This document shows, piece by piece, positions 2,444 through 36,382 of a DNA stretch of 37,878 nt (position 1 is its first letter; each line of letters begins with the position of its first letter). The notes beneath the pieces were generated by a model. It saw only the letters and a program-made list of their open reading frames with translations, did no database searches and was not told the DNA's origin. The stretch is from a virus (taxonomy: Duplodnaviria > Heunggongvirae > Uroviricota > Caudoviricetes). The translations under genes and the position numbers were made by a program. The DNA lies in the IMG/VR virus record IMGVR_UViG_2654587996_000002, one strand, 5' to 3'.

Positions 2444-3376
2444 ATGACCGATATAAACGATGTAATCAAGACCATTGATGAACTTATTGATGGCGGCGTA
2501 CTGACGCAGTATGCCATCGCCAGAGAGGCGGGAATTTCCGACGGCACATTATCGGCTTTCCGTAAGGGAAAATATAAAGGTGATAACGCTGCTGTGGCTG
2601 CTTCCCTGCGTTCCTGGTATGAGAACTGGAATAAACAAAGCGCACTGCCGGAACCGCCGCAGTTTGTGGAAACGCAGACAGTCCAGGAGCTGCGCGCGCT
2701 GTTTCAGGCGGTTCGCCTGATGGGCTGTATTAACGTCATTGTGGGCGTACCGGGTGTGGGTAAAACGGCCACGGCCCGCAATTACTGTCAGGAGCAACCG
2801 AACACCTGGATGATCACCCTGTCGCCCGCGCATTCCAGCGTCACGGAGTGTATGCTGGAGCTGGCAGAGGAACTGGGGATTGATTACACCCGCGCGAACA
2901 AGGGGGCGTTATCCCGCGCCATCCGCCGTCGCCTGATGGGAACGCGTGGACTGGTGATTGTTGATGAGGCGGATCATCTTGGTATTGACGGTCTGGAACA
3001 ACTGCGTGCAATCCAGGACGCCACGGGGATCGGGATGGTGCTTATTGGTAACCCGCGCGGACTGTTTAAGGGTGGACGCCGCACCGTTGATGATTTATCG
3101 CGCCTGTTCAGCCGTCTTGCCCGTACAAAACAACTTCGCAAGGCCAAAAAGGCGGATGTGCTGGCTATTGCCAGGGCATGGGGGATTAGTGGTGAGGCCG
3201 AGCTGGCTGTCATGCAGGCTATCGCTGAAAAGCCGGGAGCCTTACGCGTTCTGACACATACGCTTAACCAGGCGTGGATCACCGCCAGCGGTGAAGGTGC
3301 CGCGCTGACAGAAAAACATATTAATGCGGCCTTTAAAGAGGTTTATACCAACCCTGAATTACTCTCACAGGTGTGA
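2444..3376 (+). CDS. Mu B-like ATP-dependent target DNA activator (AAA+)
   Basis: 310 aa with Walker A GVPGVGKT and Walker B-like LVIVDEAD; N-terminal HTH-like region; immediately downstream of A. Confidence 0.88.
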   Translation: MTDINDVIKTIDELIDGGVLTQYAIAREAGISDGTLSAFRKGKYKGDNAAVAASLRSWYENWNKQSALPEPPQFVETQTVQELRALFQAVRLMGCINVIVGVPGVGKTATARNYCQEQPNTWMITLSPAHSSVTECMLELAEELGIDYTRANKGALSRAIRRRLMGTRGLVIVDEADHLGIDGLEQLRAIQDATGIGMVLIGNPRGLFKGGRRTVDDLSRLFSRLARTKQLRKAKKADVLAIARAWGISGEAELAVMQAIAEKPGALRVLTHTLNQAWITASGEGAALTEKHINAAFKEVYTNPELLSQV

Positions 3377-6472: not shown

Positions 6473-7024
6473 ATGATGAAATTACAACCCATGGGACGAA
6501 AAGGTCGCGCCCCCGCTCATGTCCGTCCGTGGATACCTGAAGAAGATGCGCTGCTGATTGCGCTTTATTCATCCACCCCGGTTAAGGATATTGCTGCCAG
6601 AATAAAAAGAACTGTCTGGGCTGTATATAACCGGACTGGTGTATTGCGCAGTTCATACCCGGAGTTACTGAAATATAAACACCCCAGATTTACACCTGAT
6701 GAAGATAAGTTTATTCGAAAAAATGCCAGAACAATGACCTGCCAGCAAATGGGAGAATATCTCGGACGTAATAAAGATTCTGTCAGATGTCGGGCAGGAA
6801 TGATTGGTGCCGGATTAACAAAGTGCGGAGAGTTACGCCCCGGCACGCGCATATCTGATGATGATGTCCGTCTCATACGTGCGCTGCGTGATTCCGATTA
6901 CCCACGCCGTCTGTCATTCCGGGAAATTGGCGAAAAGTTTGGAATATCTGAACATTCTGCTCACGCAGTTTATTACCGTCGCCGGACCGCCGAGGACGCT
7001 GTATTACGGGAGTTAACGCCATGA
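6473..7024 (+). CDS. putative DNA-binding protein with tandem Myb/SANT-like or HTH repeats
   Basis: Three repeats of similar pattern: WIPEEDALLIALY...IAARIKRTVWAVYNR, FTPDEDKFIRKNARTMTCQQMGEYLGRNKDSVRCRAG, ISDDDVRLIRALRDS...FREIGEKFGISEHSAHAVYYRRR. Confidence 0.5.
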   Translation: MMKLQPMGRKGRAPAHVRPWIPEEDALLIALYSSTPVKDIAARIKRTVWAVYNRTGVLRSSYPELLKYKHPRFTPDEDKFIRKNARTMTCQQMGEYLGRNKDSVRCRAGMIGAGLTKCGELRPGTRISDDDVRLIRALRDSDYPRRLSFREIGEKFGISEHSAHAVYYRRRTAEDAVLRELTP

Positions 7025-7206
7025 TAAAGCGACTTATACTTTTCGCAATTATCGTTCCAATTGGGGTGGTTGGTTTTATATTTTCGGTTACAGGAAATCT
7101 GTCCATGATGCCAGATATATGGTTCTTTATCAGGATGTCGCTCTTCCTGTTTATTATGAATCTTCTTATCGACATATATATCCGTATTACTGGAAAACAT
7201 AAATGA
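7021..7206 (+). CDS. small membrane protein, two predicted TM helices (61 aa)
   Basis: Hydrophobic stretches LILFAIIVPIGVVGFIFSV and IWFFIRMSLFLFIMNLLIDIYI; ATGA overlap with upstream gene; visibly AT-rich. Confidence 0.5.
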   Translation: MIKRLILFAIIVPIGVVGFIFSVTGNLSMMPDIWFFIRMSLFLFIMNLLIDIYIRITGKHK

Positions 7207-7577: not shown

Positions 7578-7767
7578 TCTATCCGCTGGATGGGCGCGCC
7601 CTCTGATGGCTAAGAAGCATCATTTTTTTAAAACAGGCGATAATATCAGTATATGTAGGCGGTGGTTATATCTGGCTCATAATCGCGAGCCGGATACATT
7701 TGAAAGCCCTGATGACTGTGCCGAATGCCGCAGAAGACTGAATAAGGAGAAAGATAATGGACAGTAG
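7570..7767 (+). CDS. hypothetical small Cys-containing protein, possible zinc ribbon (65 aa)
   Basis: Cys pattern ICRRW ... CAEC; overlaps neighbours on both sides. Confidence 0.4.
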   Translation: MNSLSAGWARPLMAKKHHFFKTGDNISICRRWLYLAHNREPDTFESPDDCAECRRRLNKEKDNGQ

Positions 7768-8053
7768 TTCGCAGTTGTTCTGGTGTTTATATATCACATC
7801 GTTTTTCGGTGCATTCGTCATTACACGATGGCTGTGCCGGAAAGTTATCAGTATTTTTCATAAAAAATACCTGATTGGGCTGGCGACGACTTCTCTGATT
7901 AATGCACTTGCCAGATATCATAAGGGGGAATACTACTCAAGAATAAAAACTGATGATGGTTTTAATATTTTTGTGATTCCTCCGGAGTATCGGGTTCAGC
8001 TCGATCGGGAAAATAATATCTATCATATCAGCAGGAGTGTTGATACAGCATGA
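7757..8053 (+). CDS. hypothetical membrane-anchored protein (98 aa)
   Basis: AGGAG 7 nt upstream of ATG; N-terminal hydrophobic segment LFWCLYITSFFGAFVIT; stop overlaps start of next gene. Confidence 0.5.
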   Translation: MDSSSQLFWCLYITSFFGAFVITRWLCRKVISIFHKKYLIGLATTSLINALARYHKGEYYSRIKTDDGFNIFVIPPEYRVQLDRENNIYHISRSVDTA

Positions 8054-8563: not shown

Positions 8564-8594
8564 AAATCCCGCCACAGCGCGGGATTTTTATTTT
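8564..8594 (+). terminator. Rho-independent terminator at end of early operon
   Basis: Hairpin ATCCCGC-CACAGC-GCGGGAT followed by TTTTATTTT, directly after the GemA-like stop. Confidence 0.75.
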
Positions 8595-8629: not shown

Positions 8630-9052
8630 ATGGCTGAAACACAGATGAGCATGTTTGGTGACAGCGAACAGCTGCACGCGCTGATTGACCGTCTGGATGA
8701 TATTCCTGATGATGAGCTGAAAAAGAACTGGCCCGGCACGCTGCGGGACCTGGTTGATGTGATAAGTGCTGAACTGCACCGTCAGGGGATTGAACCTGCT
8801 CAGGCGGGAATGCTTGCCCGTAAAGTTGCGGCCGCACAGGCCGGGTACATGGGCGGGCGTGGTTATTATCTCCCGGTTGGTGAATCCCTTTTCACCGAAC
8901 TGCGCAATAATGAAATTTTTTCCCGCTGGAGCCAGGGCGAAAAAATTGAAACCCTGCGCCGCCACTACCAGATGTCAGAGACGCAGATTTACTCCGTTAT
9001 CCGCAACCAGCGTCGCCTGCATCAGGAGCGCACGCAGCCCCGGCTTTTCTGA
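8630..9052 (+). CDS. Mor/C-family transcriptional activator (middle/late gene activator)
   Basis: 140 aa; GGRGYYLPVG ... IETLRRHYQMSETQIYSVIRNQRR matches Mor/C family pattern (GG..YIP.G ... C-terminal HTH); GGAGG RBS; follows early terminator. Confidence 0.75.
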   Translation: MAETQMSMFGDSEQLHALIDRLDDIPDDELKKNWPGTLRDLVDVISAELHRQGIEPAQAGMLARKVAAAQAGYMGGRGYYLPVGESLFTELRNNEIFSRWSQGEKIETLRRHYQMSETQIYSVIRNQRRLHQERTQPRLF

Positions 9053-9123
9053 TATTCCGCAAATCCTGCCCCCTTTTTCCCACGGTTACGCTGACTCAGA
9101 GAACACCATGAGACAGCGTAACA

Positions 9124-9624
9124 ATGCCAAAACTCCCCGCGCCACTGCGTAAAAAGCTGATTGCCCTTGTTCTGGCCGGAGCCGGAACGTTCACCATTGC
9201 CACGCACTACACCGGCTACTGGGAAGGGAAAGAAAACACCACGTACATTGATCCCACCGGCACCCCCACCATCTGCCACGGTCATACCGGTCCGGATGTG
9301 AAACCGGGGATGACAAAAACCGATGAAGAATGTCTGGAGCTGCTGGAAAAGGACATGAAATGGGCCTTTGCGGCCATTGATCGTTATGTTCAGGTGCCGC
9401 TTACCCGTGGTCAGACGGTGGCGCTGGCCTCCTGGATTTTCTGGGCCGGTGAAACGAACTTTCGCAACTCCACGCTCCTGCGCCTTATCAATGCCGGGCA
9501 GATGCCTGCGTCCTGTAAGCAGTACATCCGCTGGATTTATTCGAAGGGGGTGAAACTCCCCGGTCTTGAGGCCCGCCGTTCGGCGGATGAATGGTTATGT
9601 CGCTACGATTTGCCGAAAGTCTGA
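9124..9624 (+). CDS. phage lysozyme (GH24-like endolysin) with SAR-like N-terminal segment
   Basis: YWEGKENTTYIDPTGTPTICHGHTG lysozyme-like core; N-terminus LIALVLAGAGTFTIATHYTG is weakly hydrophobic and Gly/Ala-rich, as in signal-anchor-release endolysins. Confidence 0.75.
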   Translation: MPKLPAPLRKKLIALVLAGAGTFTIATHYTGYWEGKENTTYIDPTGTPTICHGHTGPDVKPGMTKTDEECLELLEKDMKWAFAAIDRYVQVPLTRGQTVALASWIFWAGETNFRNSTLLRLINAGQMPASCKQYIRWIYSKGVKLPGLEARRSADEWLCRYDLPKV

Positions 9625-9697
9625 ACCGCTTCTGGCGACCGCTCATGATTGCGCTGCTGTGTGCCGTTGTGCTGCTGCGGGGTGTGCTGTGGCTGCG

Positions 9698-10087
9698 GTG
9701 AATAATCCCTTACCGGCCCTGATTGCCGGAGGGTGTATGGCGGCGCTGGGGGTGATGAGCGTGCTGGCTGCCGTGGTATGGGGAATGCACCAGAAGACAC
9801 AGCGCCTCGAAGACAATAACCAGGTGCTTGTGCGTGAACGGGACGAAGCCCGTCTGGTACTGGCAAATCAGCAACGCACCCTGCAACTCATTTCACAAAT
9901 CAGCAAGGCGGCCACGAATGAAAAACAGCAGAACATGCAGCACAGCGAGGAACAGCAGAGCATTGTCCGCCGGTCGCTGGCAACGGTGCCTGCGGCCGCT
10001 GTGCCTGTGCCTGATGATGTGGCTGACCGGGTGCGGCGGGCCGTCTGTGAAATACGTGCCGGTGAAGCCGGTGCCGATCCCCGCTGA
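9698..10087 (+). CDS. i-spanin (Rz-like inner membrane spanin); start uncertain (GTG 9698 or ATG 9737)
   Basis: N-terminal TM (LPALIAGGCMAALGVMSVLAAVVWG) then charged, coiled-coil-like region (QRLEDNNQVLVRERDEARLVLANQQRTLQ); directly after lysozyme. Confidence 0.55.
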   Translation: MNNPLPALIAGGCMAALGVMSVLAAVVWGMHQKTQRLEDNNQVLVRERDEARLVLANQQRTLQLISQISKAATNEKQQNMQHSEEQQSIVRRSLATVPAAAVPVPDDVADRVRRAVCEIRAGEAGADPR

Positions 10088-10289
10088 ATGGCTGGCTGAC
10101 TGCCTGGTCCCTCCTGTGCCGCAGCCATTCACGTTTGGCGCATCGGTCACTTACAACCTGCAACTGCTGGCGGTGATTAAGAACTGCAACGTGGACAAGG
10201 CCAGCATCCGACGTCTGGAGGCACAGCGACAGCATGAATTTACTGATATGGCCGGAACGACTGCTGTTCCGGCAGGAAAGACGAAGTAA
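9918..10289 (+). CDS. o-spanin (Rz1-like outer membrane lipoprotein) overlapping i-spanin in +1 frame
   Basis: Lipobox-like LTGC after hydrophobic CLRPLCLCLMMW; Pro-rich mature region (VKYVPVKPVPIPAEW...VPPVPQP); starts inside and extends past i-spanin. Alternative TTG start at 9963. Confidence 0.55.
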   Translation: MKNSRTCSTARNSRALSAGRWQRCLRPLCLCLMMWLTGCGGPSVKYVPVKPVPIPAEWLADCLVPPVPQPFTFGASVTYNLQLLAVIKNCNVDKASIRRLEAQRQHEFTDMAGTTAVPAGKTK

Positions 10290-10299
10290 GGAAAAAGGT

Positions 10300-10527
10300 A
10301 TGGATGATTCAGATTGTGCTCAGGCAGTCGTGGAGCGGGCAACAGAACGCGCCCTTTGTGACCGGCTGACACGTAAGCGCCGGGTGGTGGAAACACCGGG
10401 CAGGCGTGTATGCGCGGACTGCGGGGGTGACATTCCGGCCGCCCGTCTGGTTGCCGTGCCGGATGCCATCCGTTGTGTGAACTGCCAGAACATCATGGAG
10501 GCCGGTCATGTGGGTCAGCATCGTTAA
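10300..10527 (+). CDS. TraR/DksA-family C4 zinc-finger protein
   Basis: CADCGGDIPAARL...IRCVNCQ four-Cys motif; good RBS (AAAAAGG) before ATG 10300. Confidence 0.65.
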   Translation: MDDSDCAQAVVERATERALCDRLTRKRRVVETPGRRVCADCGGDIPAARLVAVPDAIRCVNCQNIMEAGHVGQHR

Positions 10528-10816
10528 AGATTATGTCGTGCCGATCCTGTCGGCAACGGCCACAGCCGGGGGGATTTTTATGGCGCTGATGCGCAAAACC
10601 TTTGTCCCCCGCGAGGCCTTTGAAAAACTCTCCGACCGGGTTGAGCGGGTGGAGAGCCGGATTTCCGGCCTGCCCACGCAGCAGGAGGTGAACAGACTCA
10701 ATATCGAAATCACCACCCTGCGCGGTGAGCTTAAGGCCACCAATGCCACCCTGAAATCCGTCTCCCACCAGAACGAACTGCTGCTGGAGCAGGCTGTAAG
10801 GAAAAAAACACAATGA
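10508..10816 (+). CDS. single-pass membrane protein in the Mu gp25 slot (possible releasin-like lysis factor)
   Basis: N-terminal TM VVPILSATATAGGIFMALM followed by coiled-coil-like soluble region; function inferred from position only. Confidence 0.45.
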   Translation: MWVSIVKDYVVPILSATATAGGIFMALMRKTFVPREAFEKLSDRVERVESRISGLPTQQEVNRLNIEITTLRGELKATNATLKSVSHQNELLLEQAVRKKTQ

Positions 10817-11103
10817 GTGATTTCATTACTGAAGATCAGCGTCTTGTCATTCTGCGGTCGCTGGCGGATTACAACGGCGAACTGGGCGAATCCGTGCTTC
10901 AGGACTGCCTGGATGATTACGGCCACCGTGTGTCCCGCGACACCGTGCATACCCATATTGCCTGGCTTGCCGAGCAGGGACTGGTGCGTAAGCGCACGCT
11001 TGTTAACGGTTATTTCATCGCTGAACTGACCGGCCGGGGTCAGGATGTGGCGGAAGGCCGCGCCACCGTTCCGGGTGTGAAGAAACCACGCGCAAGGGGG
11101 TAA
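10813..11103 (+). CDS. hypothetical protein (Mu gp26 position)
   Basis: ORF with ATGA overlap to upstream gene; immediately upstream of terminase genes. Confidence 0.5.
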   Translation: MSDFITEDQRLVILRSLADYNGELGESVLQDCLDDYGHRVSRDTVHTHIAWLAEQGLVRKRTLVNGYFIAELTGRGQDVAEGRATVPGVKKPRARG

Positions 11104-32422: not shown

Positions 32423-32995
32423 ATGCTGATTGGGTATATCAGGGTGTCAACAAATGACCAGAATACGGCGCTACAGAGAAATGCGCTGGAATGTGCAGGA
32501 TGTGAGCTGTTTTTCGAAGACAGAATAAGCGGTAAGACAAGGGAACGTCCCGGCCTTAAACGCGCATTAAAGCGACTCCGGCCAGGGGATACCCTGCTGG
32601 TCTGGAAACTGGATCGTCTTGGACGTAGTATGCAGCACCTTGTCCTTTTAACAGAAGAACTCCGGCAGCGCGGCGTTAACTTCCGCAGCATTACGGACAA
32701 TATTGATACATCCACTCCCATGGGACGTTTCTTTTTCCATATAATGGGCGCACTGGCGGAAATGGAGCGGGAACTCATTATTGAACGTACACGCGCGGGT
32801 CTTGCTGCTGCCCGTGCTCAGGGGCGTCATGGCGGCAGACCTCAGAAACTGACAGGGAAAGAGCGGGAGCAAATCGCCCGTTTGCTGGCTAATGGCGAGT
32901 CCCGTAAACAAATCGCACTGATATTTGATATTGGCCTGTCCACCCTTTATCGTTATTTTCCTGCCTCACCGGCTCCGTCACCAAAAGTACCGTGA
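32423..32995 (+). CDS. gin: Gin-family serine DNA invertase
   Basis: MLIGYIRVSTNDQNTALQRNAL...GDTLLVWKLDRLGRSM...MGRFFFHIMGALAEMERELIIERT closely matches recalled Mu Gin / Hin; AGGAG RBS. Confidence 0.92.
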   Translation: MLIGYIRVSTNDQNTALQRNALECAGCELFFEDRISGKTRERPGLKRALKRLRPGDTLLVWKLDRLGRSMQHLVLLTEELRQRGVNFRSITDNIDTSTPMGRFFFHIMGALAEMERELIIERTRAGLAAARAQGRHGGRPQKLTGKEREQIARLLANGESRKQIALIFDIGLSTLYRYFPASPAPSPKVP

Positions 32996-33080: not shown

Positions 33081-35129
33081 ATGTCAGACTCCCAGTGGAA
33101 AATGCTCTCCGCCATGCCCGGAGAGTTTTCAGTCAAGGTTGCCGGTGGCACGGTGGCATTTATTGAAAGTCCTTTCAGGCCTTCGGGTAATAAAGGGGGG
33201 ATCACCTTCGCAGACTGCGTGATCCGCTTCAGCACGAAAGAGCCATTATGGGTAATGCCGGTATCCGGCAATCCCAGCGCAGAAATCACCAGTTCAGGTG
33301 TGACCGGCATTATTCCGATCACATCTGACGTGGCCGGAACACTCACGCCTTCTGACTGGAATGCACCGGATAACGCCGGACCGTCTGGCGGTACAAATGG
33401 CAGCAGTACAGAGCCGGAGTATTACTATGTGCTTCCACTGGCCGGGCAGTCCAACGGGATGGCCTACGGTGAAGGGCTTCCGCTACCGGCTTCATTCGAC
33501 CGCCCTGAACCGCGCATTAAGCAACTGGCACGTCGCAGCACGGTAACGCCCGATGGTACGTCGTGCACATATAACGATATCATTCCCGCAGACCACTGCC
33601 TGCATGATGTGCAGGACATGAGCGGGATAAACCACCCGAAAGCTGACCTGAGTAAAGGGCAGTATGGTTGTGTCGGCCAGGGGCTGCATATTGCCAAAAA
33701 ACTGCTGCCTTATATTCCGCAGAATGCCGGGATACTTCTGGTTCCCTGCTGTCGTGGTGCTTCGGCATTCACCACCGGTGATGACGGCTCATTCAGTGAG
33801 GCCAGCGGTGCTTCCGCTGATTCTTCACGCTGGGGAGCCGGTAAACCCCTGTATCATGACCTGGTAAGCCGTACCAGAGCGGCGCTGGCGAAGAACCCGA
33901 AAAACAAACTTCTGGCAGTGGTCTGGATGCAGGGAGAAGCAGACCTTGCATCGGGAAGTCAGCAGCATAATGGTTTATTCACAGCCATGGTTCAGCAGTT
34001 CAGAACCGACCTGTCTCCACTTGCAGCGCAGTGCGTGAGTGGAAATGCTGCCACGGTGCCGTGGATTTGTGGTGACACCACGTATTACTGGAAAAACACG
34101 TATGCCACGCAGTATGAAACAGTCTATGGAGCATATAAAAATCTGACCGCACAGAATATTTTCTTTGTGCCGTTCCTGACGGATGAGAATGGACAGAACA
34201 CGCCAACGAATGCTCCGGTGGAAGACCCGGATATTGTGGCTGTCGGGTATTACGGTGCGGCATCCCGTACCCAGGGCAGTTTTGTCTCCACACAGCGTGA
34301 CAGCCATTTCAGCTCATGGGCACGCAGGGGCATCATTTCTGACCGTCTGGCCTCAGCCATTCTGCTCCATGCGGGACGCACGGCTGAAGTTATGGGCGGA
34401 CAGGCCGTGCCGCCGGATGAAAAACCATCCCCTGACACGCCATCAACGCCGTCAACGGACGGGAAATCAATGACGACGCTGTTTTCTTACCGCGCATCGG
34501 AGTCAGGCGGAGCACTGACGCCACAGGGCTGGGGGGCGGAAGGCGGTAGTGCTGCTGTTGTGGATGATGTCGGTGCCAGCGGGGGCAAGGCGCTGAAGCT
34601 GACAAAACAGACCGGAAAGTCATGGTTTATGCAGCATGATGCCGGTAATGGTGCCGACCTGCTGGAAAAAGGTGGCCTTGTCAGCTGTCGTTTTAAACTT
34701 GATGGCGCGCTTACGGCTAATCAGTACGCACTGGCGCTGTACTGGCCGGTTTCTTCGCTTCCTCAGGGCGTCACACTGGAAGGTAATGCCGGTCATAACC
34801 TGCTGGCATCGTTTTACGTTCAGAGCGATGCCACAGACCTTATCGTGATGTACCACAAGGGTAATCCAGACCAGAACACGAAGCTGGGTTCATTCGGTGC
34901 ATTTAATAACGAGTGGCATACGCTGGCATTCCGTTTTGCCGGTAATAACAGCATTCAGGTGACGCCGGTGATTGATGGTAAGAACGGGGAACCGTTCATG
35001 CTGTCTCAGTCACCTGTCGGTTCTTTTGCGGCAGACAAGTTACGCCTGACCGATATCACCAGTAATGCAACGTATCCGGTACTGATTGACAGCATTTTGG
35101 TGGAAGTGAATAACCCGTCAGCAGGATAA
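33081..35129 (+). CDS. large accessory protein: SASA-like carbohydrate O-acetylesterase core plus C-terminal lectin/LamG-like domain
   Basis: 682 aa; LPLAGQSNGMAYGEG (GQSN motif) and VVWMQGEADLASG (QGE motif) as in sialate O-acetylesterase-like esterases; Gly/Ser/Thr/Pro linkers; C-terminal ~200 aa resembles concanavalin/LamG-type carbohydrate-binding folds. Confidence 0.6.
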   Translation: MSDSQWKMLSAMPGEFSVKVAGGTVAFIESPFRPSGNKGGITFADCVIRFSTKEPLWVMPVSGNPSAEITSSGVTGIIPITSDVAGTLTPSDWNAPDNAGPSGGTNGSSTEPEYYYVLPLAGQSNGMAYGEGLPLPASFDRPEPRIKQLARRSTVTPDGTSCTYNDIIPADHCLHDVQDMSGINHPKADLSKGQYGCVGQGLHIAKKLLPYIPQNAGILLVPCCRGASAFTTGDDGSFSEASGASADSSRWGAGKPLYHDLVSRTRAALAKNPKNKLLAVVWMQGEADLASGSQQHNGLFTAMVQQFRTDLSPLAAQCVSGNAATVPWICGDTTYYWKNTYATQYETVYGAYKNLTAQNIFFVPFLTDENGQNTPTNAPVEDPDIVAVGYYGAASRTQGSFVSTQRDSHFSSWARRGIISDRLASAILLHAGRTAEVMGGQAVPPDEKPSPDTPSTPSTDGKSMTTLFSYRASESGGALTPQGWGAEGGSAAVVDDVGASGGKALKLTKQTGKSWFMQHDAGNGADLLEKGGLVSCRFKLDGALTANQYALALYWPVSSLPQGVTLEGNAGHNLLASFYVQSDATDLIVMYHKGNPDQNTKLGSFGAFNNEWHTLAFRFAGNNSIQVTPVIDGKNGEPFMLSQSPVGSFAADKLRLTDITSNATYPVLIDSILVEVNNPSAG

Positions 35130-35263
35130 AAAAATGCCGCCGGGAAAGGGAAAACAAGGAAACCGGCGGCAAAGGTCGATACATCCAAAGCAAAAATGCA
35201 GGACGCCTTTTTAACCAACAGGTATTAACTATGTCAACACCATGCCAATAATGGAGATGAATA

Positions 35264-35446
35264 ATGACATTTTTACAGCTGATATTACTGTATTTCTGCA
35301 CGGCGGTATGTGTCTTATACCTGGTGAGTGGTGGCTATAAGGCCATCAGAAATTATGTTCGCCGCAAAATTGATGACGCAGCAGCCGAAAAGCTCAGTAA
35401 AACAGCGCAGGCAACTCCGCTCCCAAAAGACCCGACCCAGCCCTGA
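35264..35446 (+). CDS. small membrane protein (60 aa, one TM)
   Basis: N-terminal hydrophobic LILLYFCTAVCVLYLVSGG then charged tail; AT-rich accessory region. Confidence 0.4.
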   Translation: MTFLQLILLYFCTAVCVLYLVSGGYKAIRNYVRRKIDDAAAEKLSKTAQATPLPKDPTQP

Positions 35447-35481
35447 TTGCAGGGCTTTATTCCCGCATGAGGAGGATATAC

Positions 35482-35736
35482 ATGCCAGAAATTAAAGGCA
35501 CCGTCACTGAAGACCTGGTAAAACAGGCACTGTATTCCGGTGAAGTAAATAAGTTGCTGAAAGCGCAAGTCCGCAAGGATTTTGAGGCACAAATCGACAC
35601 TTACGTTGATGAGGTGCTGGCAAAACTTATTGGACCAGCTGCTGCGGCCAGTGATGCTGATAATGAGCCGAAAACCGAAGCACAGCCAGAACAACCAGAC
35701 CCGGCTCAGCCCGGAACTGACAGCACCATGATGTAA
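35482..35736 (+). CDS. hypothetical small acidic protein
   Basis: GGAGG 6 nt upstream of ATG 35482; followed by terminator-like hairpin. Confidence 0.45.
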   Translation: MPEIKGTVTEDLVKQALYSGEVNKLLKAQVRKDFEAQIDTYVDEVLAKLIGPAAAASDADNEPKTEAQPEQPDPAQPGTDSTMM

Positions 35737-36012: not shown

Positions 36013-36120
36013 TTGCACGAATTACATCAGAAAATCAGGCGTTCCATAACTTCATAGCTGATGAATCACCTCCCTGAATCATTGTTGATGACTTTTCAAT
36101 CTATTTGTTGTATCAATTAA

Positions 36121-36152
36121 ACAAATCGAATCGATCGTTTTTGTCGATCGAT
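36121..36152. promoter_or_regulatory. GATC-containing palindrome upstream of com-like gene (candidate Dam-sensitive operator, by analogy to Mu mom control region)
   Basis: AATCGATCG-TTTTTGT-CGATCGATT: perfect 9-bp inverted repeat carrying two GATC sites, about 45-75 bp upstream of the com-like start. Confidence 0.4.
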
Positions 36153-36196
36153 TAGGCGAGAAAGATATCATCAACAAAGCAGGAGGTTATGCGGCC

Positions 36197-36382
36197 ATGT
36201 ATCGAAACATACGGTGCCGACACTGCAATAAGCTACTGGCACGGGCCAGTTTCAGCTATCTGGAAGTAAAATGTCCGCGCTGCAAAACCCTCAATCAAAT
36301 CACATCTCAGAGCGCCACAGAGCACCCCACATACACAAGGAAATCCTGCCGTGGGGAACAAGAAACATTACTTTCAGTCTGA
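36197..36382 (+). CDS. com: Com-like zinc-finger translational activator
   Basis: MYRNIRCRHCNKLLARASFSYLEVKCPRCKTLNQ has the CxxC...CxxC arrangement and N-terminal similarity to Mu Com (recalled MKSIRCKNCNKLL...RCPRCK); AGGAGG RBS; 3' end overlaps start of the downstream modification gene as com does with mom. Confidence 0.8.
   Translation: MYRNIRCRHCNKLLARASFSYLEVKCPRCKTLNQITSQSATEHPTYTRKSCRGEQETLLSV

What the first reader, a model, noticed from the sequence alone, without database searches (positions are those of the whole stretch)
9124..10816. Lysis cassette without an obvious holin: SAR-like lysozyme, overlapping spanins, TraR-like zinc finger and a gp25-position membrane protein
No classical holin ORF is evident next to the lysozyme. 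The lysozyme N-terminus is a weakly hydrophobic Gly/Ala-rich segment typical of SAR endolysins, and a single-pass membrane protein follows the spanins in the slot of Mu gp25 (reported as a releasin, from memory). The o-spanin starts inside the i-spanin but extends about 200 nt beyond it and has an unusually long, Pro-rich mature region. A small hydrophobic mini-ORF (9646-9702) overlaps this region in another frame.
Basis: partly seen in the sequence, partly recalled or inferred. Interest (0 to 1): 0.45.

Follow-up and report, generated by a model that had tools for sequence, protein, structure and literature searches.

The report
Mu-type holin-less phage lysis cassette
This is the host-lysis gene cluster of a Mu-like prophage of E. 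coli, built like the holin-less cluster already described for phage Mu, and its only new feature is a conserved, never-annotated 36-codon membrane-peptide gene between the lysozyme and spanin genes.

Summary
However, the system has been known since 2022 (Chamblee et al., mBio, PMC9239132).

The window is a Mu-like prophage. Positions 9124-10816 match phage Mu genes 22-23-23.1-24-25 one for one:
- a GH24 lysozyme with a signal-anchor-release (SAR) type N-terminus;
- an overlapped i-/o-spanin pair;
- a TraR-type zinc finger;
- a DUF2730 protein homologous to the Mu gp25 "releasin".

No membrane-protein ORF in the window matches any holin family.

- The o-spanin is not unusual. It has the same 85-residue mature length, the same 10 prolines and the same 202-nt overhang as Mu gp23.1.
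- The i-spanin most likely starts at GTG 9689.
- The "mini-ORF" is 9591-9701 (36 codons), not 9646-9702.

The mini-ORF is the only new element. It is absent from Mu but kept intact, at 36-37 codons and hydrophobic, in six diverged enterobacterial Mu-like lineages. It is constrained about as strongly as the neighbouring i-spanin. It has no family and is almost never annotated. Its function is unknown; a role in lysis is only a hypothesis.

Verdict: a new member of a known kind, of low-to-moderate interest.

The parts
8630..9052 (+). Mor/C-family transcription activator directly upstream of the lysis operon
   Evidence: PF08765 Mor E=7e-31 and phrog_532 'late transcriptional activator'. It sits where Mu C (gene 21) sits, just before lys. 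A terminator-like hairpin lies upstream at 8564-8587.
9053..9123 (+). Putative activator-dependent late promoter region (inferred)
   Evidence: The block 'AATCC' - about 23 nt - 'TAnnCT' is shared with the Mu C-lys intergenic region and with four other lineages. No sigma-70 consensus promoter is found here. This is an inference, not a demonstration.
9124..9624 (+). SAR-type GH24 endolysin (Mu gp22 homologue)
   Evidence: - PF00959 E=1e-35 and phrog_7.
- 39% identity to Mu gp22 from residue 1.
- Best solved relative is 3HDE, E=8e-27, aligned over residues 5-161.
- Catalytic motif E34-x8-D43-x5-T49 is present.
- The n-region MPKLPAPLRKK carries 4 basic residues.
- The uncharged segment 12-29 contains 9 of 18 Gly/Ala/Ser/Thr.
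9591..9701 (+). Unannotated 36-codon ORF for a small hydrophobic peptide (MVMSLRFAESLNRFWRPLMIALLCAVVLLRGVLWLR)
   Evidence: - It overlaps the lys 3' end by 34 nt and the i-spanin start by 13 nt.
- It is intact and 36-37 codons long in six lineages whose Lys is 55-100% identical to the window's.
- Pooled pN/pS of its core is 0.59, against 0.54 for the i-spanin and 0.35 for lys. In the closest pair the value is 0.08.
- It stays hydrophobic more than random mutation allows (p about 0.01-0.08 per lineage across the two measures).
- It has no Pfam, PHROG or NCBIfam family.
- It has one 34-aa cluster among 1.84 billion representative proteins.
9689..10087 (+). i-spanin (Mu gp23 homologue)
   Evidence: - phrog_214 'Rz-like spanin' E=4e-30.
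- 25% identity to Mu gp23.
- N-terminal TMD with KD 2.22.
- The start is placed at GTG 9689 because the same codon is ATG in Citrobacter (L003) and L127, and is the start chosen by the gene caller in L155-157 and L164.
- In L127 the i-spanin frame has a stop upstream, which rules out the longer PGAP-style start.
- GTG 9698 remains possible.
9918..10289 (+). o-spanin lipoprotein (Mu gp23.1 homologue), overlapped architecture
   Evidence: - PF23793 LysC E=8e-17 and phrog_3001 E=1e-40.
- 44% identity to Mu gp23.1.
- Lipobox LTGC with the Cys at 10032-10034.
- Mature part 85 aa with 10 Pro, as in Mu.
- ATG 9918 is conserved in the other lineages. TTG 9963 is an alternative start that exists only in the E. 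coli type.
- PGAP calls of this gene start after the Cys and are truncated.
10300..10527 (+). TraR/DksA-type C4 zinc-finger protein in the Mu gene-24 slot
   Evidence: PF01258 E=1e-11, TIGR02419 69.6 bits (cut-off 59.7) and phrog_54. The motif C38-x2-C41-x17-C59-x2-C62 can be read directly from the sequence. Similarity to Mu gp24 is weak and confined to the Cys pairs.
10508..10816 (+). DUF2730 membrane-tethered protein, homologue of the Mu gp25 releasin
   Evidence: - PF10805 E=1e-22 over residues 6-97, and phrog_736.
- 34% identity to Mu gp25.
- N-terminal TMD at residues 10-28, followed by an R29-K30 junction motif.
- It is followed by gp26- and gp27-like genes, as in Mu.

Best explanation
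Positions 9124-10816 are the lysis operon of a Mu-like transposable prophage. It most likely works as shown for phage Mu.

Proposed sequence of events:
1. The Mor/C-family activator (8630-9052) turns on a late promoter just upstream of lys (inferred).
2. The lysozyme is exported by Sec but stays tethered to the inner membrane, inactive, by its weakly hydrophobic N-terminal signal-anchor-release domain. The basic cluster R9-K10-K11 on the cytoplasmic side locks it there.
3. The DUF2730 protein (N-out/C-in, single TMD) acts as a releasin that lets the anchor leave the bilayer. The enzyme then refolds and degrades the cell wall.
4. The i-spanin/o-spanin complex disrupts the outer membrane.
5. No holin takes part.

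The TraR-like zinc-finger protein is probably an RNA-polymerase secondary-channel regulator carried in the operon and not a lysis protein. This rests on what is known of the TraR family.

The conserved 36-codon ORF between lys and the i-spanin gene probably encodes a real single-TMD peptide. Its translation is chained to lys upstream and to the i-spanin downstream. Whether it modulates lysis is not known.

What is shown here: gene identities, synteny, the sequence features of each part, and conservation. What is inferred from the Mu experiments: membrane tethering, dependence on the releasin, absence of holin function, and timing.
For: - The cassette matches Mu genes 22-26 gene for gene in order and by homology.
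- The Lys N-terminus has the SAR composition and an adjacent basic cluster corresponding to Mu gp22 K6/K7. Those residues confer releasin dependence in Mu.
- The closest solved structure is the phage 21 SAR endolysin 3HDE, aligned through the N-terminal segment.
- DUF2730 matches over its full length and has the junction R-K motif described for the family.
- The spanin pair has a TMD, a lipobox and the same overlapped geometry as Mu.
- A census of membrane-protein ORFs over the whole window found no holin-family hit.
- The Mu mechanism itself is experimental (PMC9239132).
- The cassette is intact and widespread: 230 E. coli genomes, plus Citrobacter, Salmonella and metagenomes.
Against: - Nothing was tested functionally for this prophage.
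- The Lys N-terminus contains small residues at possible signal-peptidase positions (T24-I25-A26). No signal-peptide predictor was available, so cleavage cannot be excluded from sequence. The proven SAR domains of R21 and Mu gp22 contain such motifs too.
- The DUF2730 cytoplasmic domain here is net basic (10 acidic, 14 basic), whereas that of Mu gp25 is slightly acidic.
- Three other small TMD ORFs of unknown function exist in the prophage: 7021-7206, 7757-8053 and 35264-35446. The mini-ORF could itself be a membrane-active lysis factor.
- Chamblee et al. note that DUF2730 proteins also accompany non-SAR endolysins, so the family's role may be broader.
Confidence: 0.8

Rival explanations
1. 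The 36-codon ORF is a fourth lysis component. It would be a minimal membrane peptide that controls when the SAR endolysin is released. It could do this by depolarising the membrane like a one-TMD pinholin or a type I toxin peptide, or by antagonising or assisting the releasin. In that case this lineage is not strictly holin-less.
For: - It sits inside the lysis operon and is translationally chained to lys and to the i-spanin.
- It is conserved and stays hydrophobic in six lineages.
- It is absent from Mu and from lineage L158. L158 has only one basic residue at the Lys n-region/TMD junction, LRGS instead of LRKK.
- SAR endolysins, including Mu gp22, can be released by a pinholin.
Against: - It matches no holin or toxin family.
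- It has no hydrophilic C-terminal domain.
- It has only a weak Shine-Dalgarno sequence, and its start codons are by-products of the conserved Lys residues E-W-L-C.
- Its C-terminal motif RGxLWL coincides with the Shine-Dalgarno sequence and start codon of the i-spanin, so part of its conservation is at the nucleotide level.
- In Mu, depolarisation by DNP delays lysis rather than triggering it.
- The link with the Lys charge cluster rests on a single lineage.
Confidence: 0.15
2. The mini-ORF is not a gene. On this view 9625-9688 is only the 5' leader and ribosome-binding region of the i-spanin, or an N-terminal extension of it, and the open hydrophobic frame is a by-product.
For: - pN/pS among distant pairs is 0.5-1.2, and the region is short.
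- The i-spanin frame is also open upstream in the E. coli and Citrobacter types, and PGAP annotates it that way.
- The most conserved bases cover the i-spanin Shine-Dalgarno sequence and start codon (alignment).
Against: - In L127 the i-spanin frame carries a stop upstream, so the extension cannot be general.
- Frame-specific pN/pS favours the mini frame: 0.41 against 1.0 and 2.1 for the other two frames.
- Its constraint equals that of the genuine i-spanin gene.
- Every replacement in residues 18-29 across the six lineages is hydrophobic or small.
- No convincing conserved RNA structure was found: -6.3 kcal/mol, with a covariation term of only -0.78.
- Length and stop position are fixed in about 90 copies, with a single homopolymer indel as the only disruption.
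Confidence: 0.3
3. The lysozyme N-terminus is an ordinary cleavable Sec signal peptide. The enzyme would then be secreted in soluble form, and the DUF2730 protein would have a role unrelated to endolysin release.
For: - Possible signal-peptidase motifs (small residues at -3 and -1) follow the hydrophobic segment in all lineages (read from the sequence).
- DUF2730 also occurs alongside endolysins that have no SAR domain.
Against: - The same kind of motif is present in the proven SAR domains of R21 and Mu gp22.
- The catalytic Glu34 lies only 5 residues after the segment.
- In R21 the released SAR helix becomes part of the active enzyme (from my own knowledge of Sun et al. 2009; 3HDE aligns from residue 5). 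Cleavage would therefore remove a structural element.
- The N-terminal homology with Mu gp22 extends to residue 1.
Confidence: 0.08
4. A conventional holin is encoded elsewhere in the prophage. The candidates are the two-TMD 61-aa ORF at 7021-7206 and the DUF1378 protein at 35264-35446.
For: Both are small membrane proteins with basic or charged termini, a holin-like layout.
Against: - Neither matches a holin family.
- 7021-7206 lies in the early region and is present in only 124 E. coli genomes, against 230 that carry the lysis cassette.
- DUF1378 is part of a cargo block between gin and com.
- Confirmed holins are late genes, and the analogous Mu candidates gp19 and gp20 were shown not to be holins.
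Confidence: 0.05

Closest known systems
Phage Mu lysis cassette: gp22 SAR endolysin, gp23/gp23.1 spanins, gp24, gp25 releasin (Chamblee et al. 2022, PMC9239132)
   Same: - Same gene order, downstream of a Mor/C-family activator and upstream of gp26/gp27/terminase genes.
- Every protein is homologous: Lys 39%, i-spanin 25%, o-spanin 44%, DUF2730 34%, gp26 63% identity.
- The Lys has a SAR-type N-terminus with adjacent basic residues.
- The spanin pair is overlapped, with an identical 202-nt overhang and an 85-aa mature o-spanin.
- No holin-family gene is present.
   Different: - There is an extra conserved 36-codon membrane-peptide ORF between lys and the i-spanin. In Mu, gene 23 starts inside the end of gene 22.
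- The gene-24 slot holds a clear TraR-family zinc finger, whereas Mu gp24 shares only the Cys pairs.
- The DUF2730 cytoplasmic domain is net basic here.
- There are four rather than three basic residues before the SAR segment.
- There is only one Mor/C-type activator and no gp18-20 block.
- This lineage is known only as prophages and was not among the 34 phages analysed in that paper.
Phage 21 R21 SAR endolysin with pinholin S21 68 (PDB 3HDE/3HDF)
   Same: Closest solved structure, E=8e-27, aligned from residue 5. Same E-x8-D-x5-T triad at nearly the same positions and the same Gly/Ala-rich N-terminal anchor.
   Different: Phage 21 controls release with a two-TMD pinholin gene upstream of R. 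No such gene is present here. A DUF2730 gene is present instead.
P2 LysB/LysC, the exemplar of overlapped two-component spanins (Kongari et al. 2018, PMC6139136)
   Same: The o-spanin matches Pfam LysC (PF23793). Its gene starts in the +1 frame inside the i-spanin gene and extends beyond it. This is one of the three recognised spanin architectures.
   Different: P2 has a holin (Y) and LysA and lacks DUF2730 (from my own knowledge). The i-spanin here matches phrog_214 rather than a named Pfam family.
Small membrane peptides that depolarise the inner membrane (type I toxins such as TisB and Hok; pinholin TMD2). This is a functional analogy for the mini-ORF only.
   Same: Size (about 30-50 aa), a single hydrophobic helix, and basic residues at the ends.
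   Different: No sequence similarity to any family was found. The analogy comes from memory and is untested.

Membership tests
SAR (signal-anchor-release) endolysin, GH24 / R21 / Mu gp22 type | Muralytic GH24 domain with the catalytic E-x8-D-x5-T motif | tested here: met
   PF00959 at 123 bits. E34-x8-D43-x5-T49 is present.
SAR (signal-anchor-release) endolysin, GH24 / R21 / Mu gp22 type | N-terminal uncharged, weakly hydrophobic segment rich in Gly/Ala/Ser/Thr, preceded by basic residues | tested here: met
   Residues 12-29 are LIALVLAGAGTFTIATHY, with 9 of 18 G/A/S/T and no charge. KD(19) is 1.39, against 2.2 for the i-spanin TMD. The n-region carries 4 basic residues. The feature is conserved in seven lineages.
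SAR (signal-anchor-release) endolysin, GH24 / R21 / Mu gp22 type | The anchor is not cleaved. The protein is membrane-tethered and inactive, then released (by pinholin, depolarisation or releasin). | not testable with these tools
   This needs fractionation and Western blots, or pinholin co-expression. No signal-peptide predictor was available.
DUF2730 releasin (Mu gp25, type I) | Full-length match to PF10805, including the N-terminal TMD | tested here: met
   80.4 bits against a cut-off of 24.9, residues 6-97 on profile positions 3-101 of 102. 34% identity to gp25.
DUF2730 releasin (Mu gp25, type I) | Predicted N-out/C-in single TMD with an RR/RK motif at the membrane-cytoplasm junction | tested here: met
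   The TMD is at residues 10-28 and is followed by R29-K30. M-R-[KR] is invariant in the alignment with Mu and Citrobacter. The topology is inferred from the positive-inside rule only.
DUF2730 releasin (Mu gp25, type I) | The gene lies within five genes downstream of the endolysin in a transposable phage, paired with a SAR endolysin | tested here: met
   It is the fifth gene after lys, counting the mini-ORF. The window also has a transposase-sized ORF, Gam, GemA, Mor and gp27.
DUF2730 releasin (Mu gp25, type I) | Required for release and activation of the cognate SAR endolysin | not testable with these tools
   This needs the co-expression and deletion experiments of Chamblee et al..
Two-component spanin, overlapped architecture | [quoted passage not shown] | tested here: met
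   phrog_214 E=4e-30, TMD KD 2.22, homology to Mu gp23.
Two-component spanin, overlapped architecture | o-spanin lipoprotein with a lipobox Cys, encoded in another frame, starting inside the i-spanin gene and ending beyond it | tested here: met
   Lipobox L-T-G-C with the Cys at 10032-10034. PF23793. The gene spans 9918-10289 against an i-spanin end at 10087.
Two-component spanin, overlapped architecture | Needed for outer-membrane disruption (spherical-cell phenotype when absent) | not testable with these tools
   This needs an experiment.
Holin (classes I-III, pinholin), considered for the mini-ORF and the other small TMD ORFs | Similarity to any described holin family | tested here: not met
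   There are no holin hits in Pfam, PHROGs or NCBIfam for 9591-9701, 7021-7206, 7757-8053, 35264-35446 or 10508-10816.
Holin (classes I-III, pinholin), considered for the mini-ORF and the other small TMD ORFs | At least one TMD plus a charged hydrophilic C-terminal domain (mini-ORF) | tested here: not met
   The mini-ORF ends one residue after its hydrophobic stretch (...LRGVLWLR*). It has a TMD but no C-terminal domain.
Holin (classes I-III, pinholin), considered for the mini-ORF and the other small TMD ORFs | Lethal hole formation that can be triggered by membrane depolarisation | not testable with these tools
   This needs the DNP-triggering assay.
TraR/DksA C4 zinc-finger family | CxxC-x17-CxxC zinc finger with a family HMM match above the cut-off | tested here: met
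   PF01258 at 44.9 bits (cut-off 24.9) and TIGR02419 at 69.6 bits (cut-off 59.7). Cys38, Cys41, Cys59 and Cys62 are read directly from the sequence.
TraR/DksA C4 zinc-finger family | Binds the RNA polymerase secondary channel | not testable with these tools
   This is a biochemical property.

The most novel reading that the evidence does not exclude
The conserved 36-codon ORF (9591-9701) encodes a membrane peptide that is a previously unrecognised lysis component of a subset of Mu-like phages. It would be a timing device for SAR-endolysin release, acting either as a minimal pinholin-like depolarising peptide or as a partner or antagonist of the DUF2730 releasin. "Holin-less" Mu-type lysis would then have a lineage-specific membrane trigger.
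Probability: 0.15. Interest if true: 0.6.

Novelty: new member of a known kind. Interest (0 to 1): 0.3.

Why it matters
The releasin mechanism is still unexplained. Chamblee et al. propose three models, and only Mu itself has been tested.

This prophage lineage is common in E. coli, including O157:H7 genomes, and it offers a natural variant that could help separate the models:
- a stronger basic lock on the SAR anchor (R-K-K);
- a DUF2730 cytoplasmic domain that is net basic rather than acidic, which argues against the "acidic micro-environment" model if the protein still works as a releasin;
- an extra small membrane peptide inside the operon.

There is also a practical point. Standard annotation misses or truncates three of the six genes here: the mini-ORF, the o-spanin signal peptide and the i-spanin start. 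Otherwise the cassette is an ordinary member of a described system.

Tried and rejected
- **Extended i-spanin** (ATG 9587, or the PGAP start at GTG 9659) covering the mini-ORF region. Rejected: L127 has a stop in that frame, the frame is poorly conserved (pN/pS 1.2-2.2), and the start codon equivalent to 9689 is ATG in two lineages.
- **Programmed frameshift joining Lys to the mini-ORF TMD.** One contig (L032) has such a fusion, but through an extra A in a homopolymer. There is no conserved slippery site, and the Citrobacter type has no A-run.
- **Conserved RNA structure instead of a peptide.** RNAalifold gives -6.3 kcal/mol with almost no covariation.
- **Homology of the mini-ORF to Mu gp19 or gp20.** There is none.
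- **Family searches with the mini-ORF.**
  - No Pfam, PHROGs or NCBIfam hit.
  - tblastn against phages finds only the same Mu-like insert.
  - phmmer against 1.84 billion representatives finds one 34-aa cluster, which is the Citrobacter-type copy, and one spurious repeat protein.
- **Pattern scans for more distant mini-ORFs.** The viral and metagenome collections returned only the known lineages.
- **The genome-contig scan with Lys** returned a single locus, in Citrobacter braakii.
- **Lys homologues at 41-49% identity** sit in non-Mu phages and were uninformative.
- **The idea that the right flank is a lambdoid prophage supplying a holin.** The NanS-p/DUF1378/DUF826 block is cargo inside the Mu-like element and contains no holin.
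- **dN/dS analysis.** It is only moderately informative because synonymous sites are near saturation between lineages.
Full report
**1. Observation**

They are genes, not chance ORFs.
- 9124-9624 is a Phage_lysozyme/GH24 protein (PF00959, E=1e-35; phrog_7).
- The ORF ending at 10087 is an Rz-like i-spanin (phrog_214, E=4e-30).
- 9918-10289 is an Rz1/LysC-type o-spanin (PF23793, E=8e-17).
- 10300-10527 is a TraR/DksA C4 zinc finger (PF01258; TIGR02419, 69.6 bits against a cut-off of 59.7).
- 10508-10816 is a full-length DUF2730 protein (PF10805, 80 bits against a cut-off of 24.9).
- The small hydrophobic ORF exists but is longer than stated. It runs 9591-9701, 36 codons.

**2. Context**

The window is a Mu-like transposable prophage. 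Pfam or PHROGs identified Kil, Gam, a gp11-like protein, GemA, a Mor/C-family activator (8630-9052), gp26- and gp27-like proteins and the Gin invertase. The neighbouring long ORFs fall where Mu has its transposase, terminase, and head and tail genes.

The 9100-10850 block occurs at 80% identity or more in 230 of 5426 complete E. coli genomes. It is also found in two Stx-phage records annotated as carrying "an inserted Mu-like phage", in Citrobacter braakii, and in Salmonella, Shigella and gut metagenomes.

**3. Comparison with phage Mu**

The order lys, i-spanin, o-spanin, small Cys-rich protein, DUF2730, gp26, gp27 is that of Mu genes 22-23-23.1-24-25-26-27. Each protein is homologous to its Mu counterpart:

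| Protein | Identity to Mu counterpart |
|---|---|
| Lys | 39%, aligned from residue 1 |
| i-spanin | 25% |
| o-spanin | 44% |
| DUF2730 | 34% |
| gp26 | 63% |

Chamblee et al. 2022 (PMC9239132) showed experimentally four things about Mu:
- gp22 is a SAR endolysin.
- gp23/gp23.1 are spanins.
- Mu has no holin.
- The membrane-tethered gp25 (DUF2730) is a "releasin". It is needed because the basic residues K6 and K7 lock the SAR anchor in the membrane.

**4. The parts in detail**

*Endolysin.* The n-region MPKLPAPLRKK carries four basic residues, with R9-K10-K11 next to the membrane segment. It is followed by the uncharged stretch LIALVLAGAGTFTIATHY, in which 9 of 18 residues are Gly/Ala/Ser/Thr. 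Its KD is 1.39, against 2.2 for a true TMD nearby. The catalytic motif E34-x8-D43-x5-T49 follows. The best solved relative is the phage 21 SAR endolysin 3HDE (E=8e-27), aligned from residue 5. This N-terminus is conserved in seven lineages.

*Releasin homologue.* The DUF2730 protein has an N-terminal TMD (residues 10-28) and the junction R-K motif noted for the family. Unlike Mu gp25, its cytoplasmic domain is net basic: 10 acidic and 14 basic residues.

*o-spanin.* It has the lipobox LTGC, with the Cys at 10032-10034. Its mature length (85 aa), proline count (10) and overhang past the i-spanin (202 nt) are all identical to those of Mu gp23.1. It is therefore typical of its family and not unusual. 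"Overlapped" is one of the three recognised spanin architectures (PMC6139136).

*Annotation errors.* PGAP's lysC calls in related genomes start after the lipobox Cys and are truncated. That is the annotation problem described in the same paper.

**5. Holin census**

I scanned all ORFs for hydrophobic segments. Apart from the cassette proteins, the only small membrane-protein ORFs are these:
- 7021-7206: 61 aa, two TMDs, in the early region.
- 7757-8053: 98 aa, phrog_17269.
- 35264-35446: DUF1378.

None hits a holin family in Pfam, PHROGs or NCBIfam. The 7021 ORF is present in only 124 E. coli genomes, against 230 with the cassette. DUF1378 belongs to a cargo block (NanS-p-like esterase, DUF1378, DUF826) between gin and a Com-like gene. 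This block lies inside the Mu-like element.

**6. The mini-ORF**

In Mu, gene 23 starts inside the end of gene 22. In the window there is a 64-nt gap between the lys stop and the i-spanin start, filled by a 36-codon ORF: MVMSLRFAESLNRFWRPLMIALLCAVVLLRGVLWLR.

*Distribution.* The same ORF, 36-37 codons long, is present in six lineages whose Lys is 55-100% identical to the window's. These are the E. coli type, the Citrobacter/Salmonella type, L127, L155/156, L157 and L159. It is absent from lineage L158 (Lys 64% identical), where the i-spanin ATG overlaps the lys stop as in Mu, and from all Mu-type loci.

*i-spanin start.* The comparison fixes the i-spanin start at the codon equivalent to window 9689. 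That codon is GTG here, ATG in Citrobacter and L127, and the start chosen by gene callers in L155-157 and L164. In L127 the i-spanin frame is closed upstream, which excludes the longer PGAP-style i-spanin.

*Evidence that the peptide is selected.*
- Frame-specific pN/pS is 0.41 in the mini frame, against 1.0 and 2.1 in the other two frames.
- Its 16-codon core has a pooled pN/pS of 0.59. The values for the other genes are 0.54 for the i-spanin, 0.35 for lys, 0.35 for the o-spanin and 0.28 for DUF2730. In the closest pair the mini-ORF value is 0.08.
- All replacements in residues 18-29 are hydrophobic or small. Random mutation rarely preserves this (p about 0.01-0.08 per lineage across the two measures).
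- About 90 copies were inspected, and only one has a disruption, a homopolymer indel.

*Caveats.*
- Synonymous sites are near saturation between lineages.
- The start codons arise from the conserved Lys residues E-W-L-C.
- The Shine-Dalgarno sequence is weak.
- The invariant C-terminal R-G-x-L-W codons coincide with the i-spanin Shine-Dalgarno sequence (CGGGGT or CGAGGT) and start codon.

*Family status.* The peptide has no family in any library. It has no relative in sequenced phages outside this insert. It has a single 34-aa cluster among 1.84 billion representative proteins. I put the probability that it is a real translated gene at about 0.6-0.7. Its function is unknown.

**7. Mechanism**

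The best-supported model is the Mu mechanism. It runs as follows: late transcription from an activator-dependent promoter upstream of lys; Sec-dependent export of a membrane-tethered, inactive endolysin; release helped by DUF2730; and spanin-mediated outer-membrane disruption, with no holin.

- The promoter is inferred. A conserved AATCC...TAnnCT block is shared with Mu, and no sigma-70 consensus is found there.
- Gene identities, motifs, synteny and conservation are shown here.
- The membrane behaviour and the dependencies are inferred from the Mu experiments.
- The zinc-finger protein is most likely a TraR-like RNA-polymerase regulator and not a lysis factor. This is inferred from what is known of the family.

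**8. Verdict**

The finding is real and correctly interpreted, but it describes a new member of a system published in 2022.

The only element not previously described is the conserved mini-ORF. It could be an extra lysis regulator (probability about 0.15) or simply a small membrane peptide or coupling ORF of no consequence for lysis. Interest is 0.3.

Noticed in passing
window 7021-7206 (+): A 61-aa ORF with two strong TMDs and basic termini, which is a class II holin-like layout. It lies in the early region between an HTH regulator and the gemA block. It matches only phrog_19804 (unknown function). It is found in 124 of 5426 E. coli genomes, about half the number that carry the lysis cassette.
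   Followed up: partly
window 33081-35736 (+): A NanS-p-like sialate O-acetylesterase (SASA + DUF6645), DUF1378 (a 60-aa single-TMD protein) and DUF826. From memory, these genes are typical of the late region of lambdoid/Stx prophages. Here they sit as cargo between the Gin invertase (32423-32995) and a Com-like zinc ribbon. Window 36064-36350 still matches the "inserted Mu-like phage" of LC727881, so the block lies inside the Mu-like element.
   Followed up: partly
window 36197-37403 (+) and 37450-37878: A Com-like zinc-ribbon ORF (36197-36382) overlaps the start of a C5 cytosine DNA methylase (36351-37403), in the place where Mu has com and mom. The window then ends in a fragment of a fimbrial usher gene. 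That fragment is probably the host gene into which the prophage inserted.
   Followed up: no
L002 (E. coli M18) 2620-3190; L004-L008 860-1490: RefSeq/PGAP annotation of this cassette is systematically off. The lysC (o-spanin) CDS begins after the lipobox Cys, so the signal peptide is missing. The i-spanin CDS is extended upstream over the mini-ORF and is sometimes named "endopeptidase". The mini-ORF is never called.
   Followed up: yes
P0005 (196 aa) and L032/L064 (IMGVR_UViG_2526164665_000023): These are degenerate or variant copies. P0005 is an in-frame deletion that fuses the Lys N-terminal 125 residues to the o-spanin C-terminus. L032 has one extra A in CCGAAAG, which fuses Lys to the mini-ORF TMD. 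That could be a sequencing error or a real frameshift.
   Followed up: partly
window 8564-8587 and 8630-9123: Only one Mor/C-family activator lies between gemA and lys. It is preceded by a strong terminator-like hairpin. Mu has Mor, genes 18-20 and C in this position. This suggests a shorter regulatory cascade than in Mu.
   Followed up: no
L158 2501-3390 (Logan SRR10583078): This sister lineage lacks the mini-ORF. Its Lys has only one basic residue at the anchor junction (LRGS instead of LRKK/LRKR/LRKI), and its i-spanin N-terminus begins MSWLRG.... This may be a co-variation between the mini-ORF and the charge lock, but it rests on a single lineage.
   Followed up: no
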